The notes under the pieces were generated by a model that saw nothing but the letters and a program-made list of their open reading frames with translations, was not told the origin of the DNA and did not search any database. From contig CAZOYV010000001.1 in the NCBI GenBank assembly GCA_964584075.1, positions 25,701 to 89,700 on the forward strand: a stretch of DNA of 64,000 nt. The letters are read 5' to 3'. How positions within the stretch are numbered: position 1 is the first letter of the stretch; every line of letters starts with the position of its first letter. This DNA comes from an uncultured Rickettsiales bacterium (GTDB taxonomy: Bacteria; Myxococcota_A; UBA796; UBA9615; CAYRNR01). Positions 5,259 to 5,501 of the stretch are shown here, one piece after another. The position numbers and the translations under genes were made by a program.

Positions 5259-5288
5259 GGGGTCAAGTCGCGTGTTGTATAGTTGCGC
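5259..5288 (+). repeat. Copy 1 of a 29-30-nt conserved AT-rich element GGGGTCAAGTCGCGTGTTGTATAGTTGCG(C)
   Basis: Exact sequence identity with the copies at about 5472-5501 (+) and about 24831-24859 (-). It is the most AT-rich stretch in an otherwise >70% GC region. Confidence 0.8.
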
Positions 5289-5471
5289 TGGGATCAGGGT
5301 CCCGGCGGCCAGCGAGTTGGGTTGCTGTCACGGCCTTGGTGGCGAGAAGGGGCGGCGGCCGAGATCCGGAGCGGCGGGGGCGGTTCGGAGGGGCAGCCCG
5401 TGCCTGCTGGGGCCTGGGGGGCGTCTCGGGCGCTTGGGTCGAGATGGATTCCAGCAAAAGGTGGCGGCCTT

Positions 5472-5501
5472 GGGGTCAAGTCGCGTGTTGTATAGTTGCG
5501 C
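5472..5501 (+). repeat. Copy 2 of the 29-30-nt element, ending 2 nt upstream of the ATG of the 5503..6399 gene
   Basis: Identical 30-mer, followed by ccATG. It contains TATAGT 7 nt upstream of the ATG, which would suit a leaderless-mRNA promoter. Confidence 0.8.

What the first reader, a model, noticed from the sequence alone, without database searches (positions are those of the whole stretch)
5259..5501. Perfectly conserved 29-30-nt AT-rich element in three copies, two of them abutting ATG start codons
GGGGTCAAGTCGCGTGTTGTATAGTTGCG occurs identically at about 5259-5288 (+), about 5472-5501 (+) and about 24831-24859 (-). Copy 2 ends 2 nt before the ATG of a secreted-protein gene (…TATAGTTGCGccATG). 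Copy 3 ends 4 nt before the ATG of a PLD-like gene (…TATAGTTGCGaacgATG). Neither gene has a Shine-Dalgarno. The element carries TATAGT 7-9 nt upstream of the ATG, which is the geometry of a promoter producing leaderless mRNAs. At the same time, 29/29 identity is higher than usual for promoter conservation and suggests a recently spread element, either a regulon-specific operator/promoter cassette or a miniature repeat. It is the only strongly AT-rich motif in a >70% GC background.
Basis: seen in the sequence. Interest (0 to 1): 0.6.

Follow-up and report, generated by a model that had tools for sequence, protein, structure and literature searches.

The report
Reused promoter for leaderless mRNAs
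A 30-base DNA element present in three identical copies in an uncultured myxobacterial genome is most likely a compact promoter that starts transcription right at the start codon of two unrelated genes; it is a tidy case of promoter reuse rather than a new kind of element.

Summary
TGGGGTCAAGTCGCGTGTTGTATAGTTGCG occurs three times with no mismatch: 5258-5287 (+), 5471-5500 (+) and 24831-24860 (-). No degenerate copy exists elsewhere in the 64 kb, and identity stops sharply at the element's edges.

Copies 2 and 3 place TATAGT 6 and 8 nt before the ATG of two unrelated genes. One encodes an outer-membrane beta-barrel protein and the other a PLD-family protein. Both starts are supported by homologues, and neither has a Shine-Dalgarno sequence.

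TANNNT is very rare here (47 in 128 kb of both strands). It nevertheless sits 6-8 nt before several other SD-less gene starts in the window and in related Myxococcota MAGs (11 of 31 hexamers; P about 1e-5). That is the known signature of leaderless-mRNA promoters.

The element is absent from orthologous positions and from about 200 kb of related MAG sequence. Parts of it tested as exact strings found no related copy in genome, metagenome or viral collections. No transposase, target-site duplication, hairpin or Rfam match was found.

Best reading: a minimal -10 promoter module for leaderless mRNAs, recently copied within this genome. The conserved 5' 19 nt could be a regulator site. Transcription starts, genome-wide copy number and the copying mechanism remain untested. 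Interest is moderate to low.

The parts
5258..5287 (+). Copy 1 of the 30-nt element (TGGGGTCAAGTCGCGTGTTGTATAGTTGCG). It is an orphan copy: no ATG or GTG follows within 5-9 nt. It lies 79 nt from the ATG (5179) of the divergent gene and 213 nt upstream of copy 2.
5278..5283 (+). TATAGT -10-like hexamer of copy 1
5288..5469 (+). Non-coding, G-rich spacer between copies 1 and 2 (counts for 5288-5471: 87 G, 46 C). GC3 is flat in all six frames. It shows no significant RNA fold (z -0.38), no Rfam match and no homologue in related loci. It is a possible 5' leader of a longer transcript made from copy 1.
5470..5500 (+). Copy 2 (31 nt including TT). It ends 2 nt before ATG 5503.
5491..5496 (+). TATAGT of copy 2. 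Its first T is 12 nt upstream of the A of the ATG, so the canonical +1 position falls on that A.
5503..6399 (+). Gene driven by copy 2: a 298-aa protein with a signal peptide, predicted as an outer-membrane beta-barrel (AF2 pLDDT 93; best PDB fold match FapF). It is monocistronic.
24831..24861 (-). Copy 3 (31 nt including TT). It ends 4 nt before ATG 24826 and begins 26 nt after the stop codon (24888-24890) of the co-directional upstream CCG/4Fe-4S gene.
24835..24840 (-). TATAGT of copy 3, with an 8-nt gap to the ATG
24260..24826 (-). Gene driven by copy 3: a 188-aa PLD-family protein (PLDc_2, PLDc). The start is fixed by an in-frame TAG 9 nt upstream and by alignment with homologues of about 190 aa.
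4339..5179 (-). Divergent neighbour of copy 1: a secreted protein with a clear SD (GGAGAGGGAG). It shows that this genome also uses SD-led starts.

Best explanation
The element is a compact promoter module. Its TATAGT is a near-consensus -10 hexamer for the housekeeping sigma factor. The hexamer is placed so that RNA polymerase starts at the A of the ATG in copy 2, or within about 2 nt of it in copy 3. The resulting mRNAs are leaderless and are translated without a Shine-Dalgarno sequence.

The module heads two unrelated monocistronic genes, one for an outer-membrane beta-barrel protein and one for a PLD-family protein. A third, orphan copy lies 213 bp upstream of copy 2. That copy probably fires a second, leadered transcript into the same gene.

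A -10-only promoter needs about 6 specified bases, yet all 30 are identical, and relatives lack the element. The three copies are therefore best explained as recent intragenomic reuse of one promoter. The conserved 5' 19 nt either hitch-hiked or forms a binding site that co-regulates the copies.

Shown: the sequence facts, the gene starts, the absence of an SD, and the enrichment of the geometry in this lineage. Inferred: promoter activity, TSS position, recency and the copying mechanism.
For: - Three exact copies with sharp boundaries.
- The TATAGT-to-ATG gaps of 6 and 8 nt put the first T at -12 and -14. Leaderless genes in high-GC bacteria carry TANNNT about 12 bp upstream of the start (PMC3160421). 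This was validated experimentally in Deinococcus (PMC12340547).
- The gene starts are firm.
- No SD precedes these two genes, whereas about 18 other starts in the window have one.
- TANNNT is rare: 47 on both strands of 64 kb. Only 4 hexamers lie within 1 mismatch of TATAAT. Three are the copies; the fourth, TAGAAT at 34847, sits 11 nt before the ATG of a 66-aa ORF.
- Other SD-less starts with TANNNT at gap 7 are at 10795, 35143 and 32184.
- Across 261 kb of window plus related MAG loci, 11 of 31 TANNNT within 45 nt of first-in-ORF starts lie at gap 6-8 (binomial P 9e-6).
- In independently annotated L001, 13 of 20 genes have an SD. Three lack one and instead have TANNNT at gap 6-8.
- Orthologues of the beta-barrel gene with TANNNT 6-9 nt before the start: L006 (TACGGT-8-ATG), L012 (TATCGT-9-ATG), L016 (TAGAGT-6-GTG) and L017 (TAGCCT-6-ATG). 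L007 and L015 showed neither signal.
- On recency, the element is absent from the orthologous site in relatives with 85% and 67% protein identity. It is also absent from about 200 kb of related loci. Exact substrings (a 21-mer, and an 18-mer from the 3' half or the 5' end) had no related hit in the collections each was scanned against.
Against: - There is no transcript evidence of any kind.
- No -35 hexamer lies at 16-18 nt. The only TTG is 15 nt from the -10, and the tool's sigma-70 scan reports no promoter here.
- Copy 1 has no start codon behind it, so a leaderless role cannot apply to all three copies.
- Copy 3 lies only 26 nt after a co-directional gene with no terminator between them, so the PLD gene could also be read from an upstream promoter.
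- No mechanism is known that copies a discrete 30-nt unit to positions 2-4 nt from start codons.
- With only three copies, and no access to the rest of the genome, recent copying and strong constraint cannot be told apart.
Confidence: 0.55

Rival explanations
1. The element is mainly an operator. A sequence-specific regulator, or a dedicated alternative sigma factor, recognises most of the 30 nt. The three sites form a small regulon, and copies 1 and 2 (213 bp apart, about 20 helical turns) might allow looping. Identity would then reflect constraint rather than recency. This reading is compatible with the -10 also being functional.
For: Identity extends 19 nt upstream of the -10, far more than a -10-only promoter needs. 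Other leaderless-type promoters in the window share nothing with that 5' part. By eye, the element contains an imperfect 11-nt direct repeat (GTCAAGTCGCG / GTATAGTTGCG, 8 of 11, 15 nt start to start). Copies 1 and 2 are in helical phase.
Against: Sites of real regulons normally differ from one another, and 30 of 30 identity across three sites is unusual. No regulator or sigma gene lies nearby; the only one found is a sigma-54 activator at 56043-57455, and the element does not fit the -24/-12 consensus (by inspection). No related site occurs in relatives. The internal repeat is not statistically significant (roughly 0.15 expected by chance, my estimate).
Confidence: 0.2
2. The element is a selfish or structural repeat: a REP-like unit, a MITE fragment, a solo terminal inverted repeat of a transposon (Tn3-family ends also begin GGGG), or a recombination site. 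On this reading copies 2 and 3 bracket a 19.3-kb segment as inverted repeats, and the proximity to start codons is incidental.
For: The unit is discrete and sharply bounded, with perfect identity. Copies 2 and 3 are perfect 31-nt inverted repeats with their GGGG ends facing outward, 19,330 nt apart.
Against: The element has no dyad symmetry or hairpin and no target-site duplication. No transposase, integrase or recombinase lies in the 19.3-kb segment or anywhere in the window. The segment encodes PPi-PEPCK, a metallophosphoesterase, three PPDK_N proteins, GDH, MscL, MscS and a KCC-like transporter. BLAST against 72,556 plasmids and 50,697 phages gave only chance matches of 17-21 nt. Two of the three copies end 2 and 4 nt from verified start codons in the correct orientation, which is improbable for incidental placement.
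Confidence: 0.1
3. The element acts at the RNA level. It would be transcribed from upstream promoters and serve as an SD-independent translation-initiation region (an unstructured U/A-rich stretch before the AUG), or as a shared target for a small RNA or RNA-binding protein.
For: The 3' half is among the most A/T-rich 12-mers in the window and lies directly before two AUGs. Copy 3 follows a co-directional gene with no terminator between them.
Against: Copy 1 precedes no start codon. Copy 2 sits in a divergent intergenic region, so some promoter must lie in that 323 bp, and the element holds its only -10-like hexamers. There is no significant structure and no Rfam hit. The G+C-rich 5' half is not explained.
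Confidence: 0.08
4. The element is a promoter for a phage-type single-subunit RNA polymerase. Such promoters are about 20-23 nt long, near-identical between copies, and contain TATA immediately before a +1 G, as in T7 and SP6 (...CACTATAG).
For: The copies are perfectly identical over more than 20 nt, and a TATAG core is present (by inspection).
Against: Apart from TATAG there is no similarity to the T7, T3 or SP6 consensus (from my own knowledge of those sequences). No such polymerase gene was found among the window's proteins. There are no hits in viral contigs or phage genomes. Transcripts would carry 8-10-nt leaders without an SD.
Confidence: 0.02

Closest known systems
Promoters of leaderless genes: a -10 TANNNT box adjacent to the ORF, as in Actinobacteria and Deinococcus-Thermus (Zheng et al. 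2011, PMC3160421; PMC12340547; M. tuberculosis PMC3898074)
   Same: The hexamer fits TANNNT, with its first T 12-14 nt before the start codon. There is no SD, no recognisable -35 and an ATG start. The same two-class pattern (SD-led versus TANNNT-led) is seen in this window and in related MAGs.
   Different: The host is an uncultured Myxococcota-type bacterium. For that phylum, my one targeted literature search turned up only an individual predicted case (pexR, PMC12754779). Here 24 further bases around the hexamer are identical between copies, which generic leaderless promoters do not show.
Putative mobile promoters / promoter reuse (Matus-Garcia, Nijveen & van Passel 2012, PMC3488235)
   Same: Identical upstream sequence lies in front of non-homologous genes, with non-homologous upstream neighbours. 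Identity begins within a few nt of the start codon, as in their Treponema family. Identical copies were their commonest case and were read as very recent events.
   Different: Their operational definition needs at least 50 nt aligned at 80% identity or more, and this unit is only 30-31 nt. No IS, MITE or riboswitch is associated with it. One copy is not next to a gene start.
Repeat elements that carry promoter boxes, such as Neisseria Correia elements (from my own knowledge)
   Same: A short repeated unit places a TATA-type -10 box close to genes.
   Different: Correia elements are 100-155 bp long with terminal inverted repeats and a TA target duplication. This unit is 30 nt long, asymmetric and has no duplication.

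Membership tests
Leaderless-gene promoter (-10 box adjacent to ORF) | TANNNT hexamer with its first T about 12 nt (range about 11-15) upstream of the start codon | tested here: met
   Copy 2 is TATAGT-6 nt-ATG (first T at -12). Copy 3 is TATAGT-8 nt-ATG (first T at -14). The reference position comes from PMC3160421.
Leaderless-gene promoter (-10 box adjacent to ORF) | No Shine-Dalgarno sequence between promoter and start codon | tested here: met
   No GGAG, GAGG or AGGA lies within 20 nt upstream of 5503 or 24826, while about 18 other starts in the window have one.
Leaderless-gene promoter (-10 box adjacent to ORF) | The codon next to the hexamer is the true translation start | tested here: met
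   Identical 298-aa and 188-aa proteins are on record from an NCBI contig. The signal peptide begins at this Met and orthologue N-termini agree. The PLD alignment agrees, and an in-frame TAG lies 9 nt upstream.
Leaderless-gene promoter (-10 box adjacent to ORF) | The organism or lineage uses this mode (enrichment of TANNNT at that distance) | tested here: met
   11 of 31 hexamers lie at gap 6-8 (P 9e-6). In L001, 3 of 20 annotated genes are SD-less with TANNNT at gap 6-8. Orthologues L006, L012, L016 and L017 show the same pattern.
Leaderless-gene promoter (-10 box adjacent to ORF) | Mapped transcription start at or within 5 nt of the start codon | not testable with these tools
   No transcriptome data are available for this uncultured genome.
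Canonical sigma-70 promoter with -35 and -10 | A TTGACA-like hexamer 16-18 nt upstream of the -10 | tested here: not met
   The consensus scan of 4800-6000 found no promoter-like site. The only TTG (TTGGGG) is 15 nt from TATAGT, by inspection.
Putative mobile promoter (PMP, PMC3488235) | Homologous upstream sequence before non-homologous CDSs, with non-homologous upstream neighbours | tested here: met
   The downstream genes encode a beta-barrel OMP and a PLD-family protein. The upstream neighbours are a divergent secreted protein and a CCG/4Fe-4S protein.
Putative mobile promoter (PMP, PMC3488235) | Alignment of at least 50 nt at 80% identity or more | tested here: not met
   Identity covers 30-31 nt and then drops to background. 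The definition was read.
REP / MITE / transposon terminal repeat | Internal dyad symmetry or terminal inverted repeats within the unit | tested here: not met
   There is no palindrome in the 31-mer by inspection. The fold of the region is no better than shuffles.
REP / MITE / transposon terminal repeat | Target-site duplication flanking the copies | tested here: not met
   The flanks are CAGA/CTGG, GCCT/CCAT and GGGT/AACG, so no direct repeat is present.
REP / MITE / transposon terminal repeat | Cognate transposase, or similarity to known transposon ends | tested here: not met
   No transposase or recombinase domain was found in the window's ORFs. The 1182-aa ORF is a PPi-PEPCK. No significant plasmid or phage match was found.
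REP / MITE / transposon terminal repeat | Many genomic copies without positional bias toward gene starts | not testable with these tools
   The source assembly is not retrievable beyond the window.
Phage-type single-subunit RNAP promoter | A cognate T7-like RNA polymerase gene, and a promoter consensus beyond TATAG | tested here: inconclusive
   No such gene was found in the window, but the rest of the genome is unseen. There are no matches in viral collections.
Known RNA families (Rfam) | Covariance-model match | tested here: not met
   There were no hits at gathering score on the whole window and none at E <= 1 on 5100-5650.

The most novel reading that the evidence does not exclude
The 30-mer is a self-contained 'plug-in' expression module that spreads by an unknown, transposase-independent route and is installed or retained precisely at start codons. 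It would give newly rearranged or newly acquired genes an instant leaderless promoter. Supporting hints are that the beta-barrel gene has lost its ancestral operon context and that the PLD gene's nearest homologues lie in Planctomycetota-like contexts. The invariant 5' half could be read by a dedicated factor. This would be a new class of minimal mobile promoter, well below the size of PMPs and MITEs.
Probability: 0.1. Interest if true: 0.65.

Novelty: new member of a known kind. Interest (0 to 1): 0.35.

Why it matters
If confirmed, this would be a clean natural example of promoter reuse at minimal size: 30 nt that supply both transcription initiation and, through a leaderless mRNA, translation initiation. 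It would also be computational evidence that leaderless expression is a regular mode in an uncultured, high-GC Myxococcota lineage. That mode is established for Actinobacteria and Deinococcus-Thermus, but I found little reported for myxobacteria.

In practice the element could serve as a compact portable promoter for high-GC hosts. The TANNNT-at-gap-6-8 rule would also help fix start codons when annotating these MAGs. The finding does not open a new mechanism unless the copying process proves to be specific.

Tried and rejected
**Searches for more copies**
1. The exact 21-mer core had 0 hits in genome contigs and in metagenome contigs.
2. The 18-mer 3' half in metagenomes gave two chance hits in low-GC contigs with unrelated flanks.
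3. An 18-mer from the 5' end and the 3'-half 18-mer had 0 hits in viral contigs.
4. A scan allowing up to 11 mismatches over all fetched loci found nothing related.
5. I tried to find other genomic copies through ORF products spanning the element (six-frame peptides as query).

**Retrieving the source genome.** Exact-protein look-ups failed, although identical proteins are in the protein database.

**Transposon, TIR or invertible segment.** Rejected: there is no transposase or recombinase, no target-site duplication, and the segment carries housekeeping genes. No similarity to plasmid or phage DNA was found.

**Coding element.** Rejected. The element is in different frames relative to the two ATGs. 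The spacer has flat GC3 in all frames. The long ORF 5257-6399 is an artefact of high GC.

**Structured RNA or riboswitch.** Rejected.

**Other motifs.** By inspection and from my own knowledge of the consensus sequences, the element does not fit a sigma-54 -24/-12 promoter, a dif/Xer site, an NrdR box or a LexA box. A single 11-nt match to the CarH-type repeat pattern nAnnTnnACAn on the minus strand lacks the required tandem repeats, and I treated it as post-hoc chance.

**Other negative checks.**
- No analogous perfect intergenic repeats were found in the related MAG locus L001.
- The related-loci query with the 36-sequence alignment failed for lack of conserved stretches. It worked with 12 sequences.
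- The intergenic sequences 5180-5502 and 24827-24890 have no homologue in related loci or elsewhere in the window.

Full report
**1. The observation**

The 29-mer GGGGTCAAGTCGCGTGTTGTATAGTTGCG is present without mismatch at three sites: 5259-5287 (+), 5472-5500 (+) and 24831-24859 (-). None of 100 dinucleotide-preserving shuffles produced a match, even with 3 mismatches allowed.

Extension shows one more shared base in all three copies (T, giving 30 nt) and two more in copies 2 and 3 (TT, giving 31 nt). An alignment with 100-nt flanks shows that similarity falls to background immediately outside the unit. No other position in the 64 kb comes within 10 mismatches.

The window has 72.8% G+C. TATAGT occurs only in these three places. 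Only one other hexamer lies within one mismatch of TATAAT: TAGAAT at 34847. The element's 3' half is one of only four 12-nt windows with at least 9 A/T. The other non-element window is coding sequence at 62786-62808.

**2. Surroundings**

*Copy 2.* It ends 2 nt before ATG 5503, which opens a 298-aa ORF.
- The same 298-aa protein is on record from an NCBI contig of 107,871 bp, which fits an independent gene call at this ATG.
- The protein begins with a typical signal peptide, and orthologues start at the equivalent place.
- AlphaFold2 gives a confident beta-barrel (pLDDT 93). Its best PDB fold match is the outer-membrane transporter FapF (E 4e-12, TM 0.60-0.65).
- The ORF that is open upstream to ATG 5257 is a high-GC artefact, since the 184-nt spacer has flat GC3 in all six frames.

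*Copy 3.* It ends 4 nt before ATG 24826, which opens a 188-aa PLD-family protein (PLDc_2 and PLDc).
- An in-frame TAG lies 9 nt upstream.
- Homologues of about 190 aa align from the N-terminus.
- The identical 188-aa protein is on record.

*Copy 1.* It lies 79 nt from the ATG of a divergent, SD-led gene (5179, minus strand) and 213 nt upstream of copy 2. No ATG or GTG follows it at promoter distance.

*The 19.3 kb between copies 2 and 3.* This segment encodes ordinary genes: a PPi-dependent PEPCK (PDB 6k31 and 8e1u, E = 0), a metallophosphoesterase, three PPDK_N proteins, glutamate dehydrogenase, MscL, MscS and a KCC-like transporter. No transposase, recombinase, sigma factor or nearby transcription factor was found anywhere in the window.

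**3. Is the promoter geometry meaningful in this lineage?**

TANNNT is very rare here, with 47 occurrences on both strands of 64 kb. It nevertheless sits close to several gene starts that lack an SD:

| Start | Hexamer | Gap (nt) |
|---|---|---|
| 5503 | TATAGT | 6 |
| 24826 | TATAGT | 8 |
| 10795 | TATCCT | 7 |
| 35143 | TAGGCT | 7 |
| 32184 | TAGGAT | 7 |
| 34864 (66-aa ORF) | TAGAAT | 11 |

About 18 other starts in the window have a clear GGAG-type SD at the point where GC3 rises.

The protein-based genome scan returned 13 loci from uncultured Myxococcota-type MAGs. Over 261 kb of window plus relatives, 11 of 31 TANNNT hexamers within 45 nt of first-in-ORF starts lie at gap 6-8 (binomial P 9e-6). 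In L001, which has independent gene calls, 13 of 20 genes have an SD. Three have none and carry TANNNT at gap 6-8.

Several orthologues of the beta-barrel gene show the same arrangement with unrelated hexamers: TACGGT-8-ATG, TATCGT-9-ATG, TAGAGT-6-GTG and TAGCCT-6-ATG. Others are translationally coupled to an upstream gene, one has an SD (L018), and two show neither signal (L007, L015).

This two-class pattern is the published signature of leaderless genes. TANNNT lies about 12 bp upstream of the start in high-GC bacteria (PMC3160421), and this was validated experimentally in Deinococcus (PMC12340547). For Myxococcota, my one targeted literature search found only a single predicted case (PMC12754779). 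In copy 2 the first T is exactly 12 nt from the A of the ATG.

**4. Why are all 30 bases identical?**

Generic leaderless promoters in the window and in relatives share only TANNNT, so RNA polymerase alone does not explain 30 of 30 identity.

The element is missing where it would be expected if it were old:
- In the relative with 85% protein identity, the orthologue's start overlaps the stop of a different upstream gene (ATCTGATG).
- In the relative with 67% identity, a different hexamer is used.
- About 200 kb of related loci hold no copy within 11 mismatches.
- Exact substrings found nothing related. These were a 21-mer core in the genome and metagenome collections, the 3'-half 18-mer in metagenomes and viral contigs, and an 18-mer from the 5' end in viral contigs.

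The PLD gene's closest homologues (about 70% identity) sit in different, Planctomycetota-like contexts. One has a clear SD and another only a weak SD-like sequence.

The simplest reading is recent reuse of one promoter within this genome, at genes that had lost or never had a local promoter. The closest described phenomenon is promoter propagation (PMC3488235). This unit is shorter than that study's 50-nt threshold, and no IS or MITE is attached.

A regulator site in the 5' 19 nt remains possible. Two weak hints are an 8-of-11 internal direct repeat and the in-phase 213-bp spacing of copies 1 and 2.

**5. Rivals**

- *Transposon end or invertible segment.* Copies 2 and 3 are perfect inverted repeats with their GGGG ends outward. 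There is no transposase, target duplication or similarity to known ends.
- *REP or MITE.* The unit has no dyad symmetry, and folding is no better than shuffles.
- *RNA element.* There is no Rfam hit and no structure, and copy 1 precedes no start codon.
- *Phage-type RNAP promoter.* Only the TATAG core resembles one. No such polymerase gene is in the window, and there are no viral matches.
- *Coding element.* The frames are inconsistent between copies.

**6. Limits**

There are no transcript data, and the rest of the source genome could not be fetched. Copy number, positional bias and variation among copies are therefore unknown. The copying mechanism is unexplained. Copy 1's role is inferred only; it may be a second, leadered promoter for the beta-barrel gene, an ncRNA promoter or a decoy site.

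**7. Verdict**

The feature is real and non-random. Most likely it is a compact -10 promoter module producing leaderless mRNAs, recently duplicated to three sites. That makes it a new member of known kinds (leaderless promoters and promoter reuse) in an under-studied lineage. Interest is moderate to low unless a genome-wide census reveals a large start-codon-anchored family or a specific spreading mechanism.

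Noticed in passing
window 34847-35061 (+): The only other near-consensus -10 hexamer in the window (TAGAAT, 34847-34852) sits 11 nt before ATG 34864 of a 66-aa ORF (MTYNFDPDRWYDNHRDLLEARHRRGELDDD...). It is probably a small gene with a leaderless or very short-leader mRNA.
   Followed up: partly
window 10795, 32184, 35143 (+): Three further SD-less gene starts have TANNNT 7 nt upstream: a metallophosphoesterase, a GRDB-like protein and a PMT_2/TPR protein. 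Leaderless-type starts make up roughly a fifth of confidently placed starts in the window.
   Followed up: partly
window 6357-6738; gene 6403-6813 (-): Six tandem 48-nt repeats encode a 16-aa Cys-rich repeat (…NDAYCDTGDCKAILRY…) in a 136-aa secreted protein with no Pfam or NCBIfam match.
   Followed up: no
window 6895/7021-10443 (+): A large protein with no Pfam or NCBIfam hit is a PPi-dependent PEP carboxykinase (PDB 6k31 and 8e1u, E = 0). The SD-supported start is probably GTG 7021.
   Followed up: partly
window 11600-19000: Three paralogous PPDK_N-domain (PEP-utilising kinase-like) genes are present. Two are convergent, with long inverted similarity (up to 95% over 43 nt), and one is fused to a nucleotidyltransferase domain.
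   Followed up: no
window 18997-24226: This cluster looks osmoadaptive: glutamate dehydrogenase, MscL, MscS and a 762-aa K-Cl-cotransporter-like permease.
   Followed up: no
window 24888-28766 (-): Three tandem paralogues of a CCG-domain / 4Fe-4S dicluster protein (heterodisulfide-reductase-like) lie immediately upstream of copy 3.
   Followed up: no
window 5288-5471 (+): The spacer between copies 1 and 2 is strongly G-rich on the plus strand (87 G vs 46 C) with many G4-6 runs. It could form G-quadruplexes in DNA or in a 5' leader RNA.
   Followed up: no
window 5261-5271 and 5276-5286 (positions 4-14 and 19-29 of the 29-mer): There is an imperfect 11-nt direct repeat inside the element: GTCAAGTCGCG / GTATAGTTGCG, 8 of 11 identical, 15 nt start to start. 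It is not statistically significant alone.
   Followed up: partly
L008-L011, L013, L014 (orthologue loci): In at least six related MAGs the beta-barrel gene's start overlaps the stop of a conserved upstream gene (GTGA or ATGA), implying translational coupling. That synteny is lost in the window, where the gene stands alone behind the element.
   Followed up: partly
L006, L007, L008, L011, L014 record titles: Several contigs with 65-76% G+C that carry Myxococcota-type genes are titled 'uncultured Rickettsiales bacterium' in their public records. This looks like a taxonomic mislabel.
   Followed up: no
L017 9917-9956: Two divergent genes start only 38 nt apart, each with its own TANNNT 6-7 nt before the ATG (TAGCCT and TACTCT). 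They appear to be back-to-back leaderless promoters.
   Followed up: no
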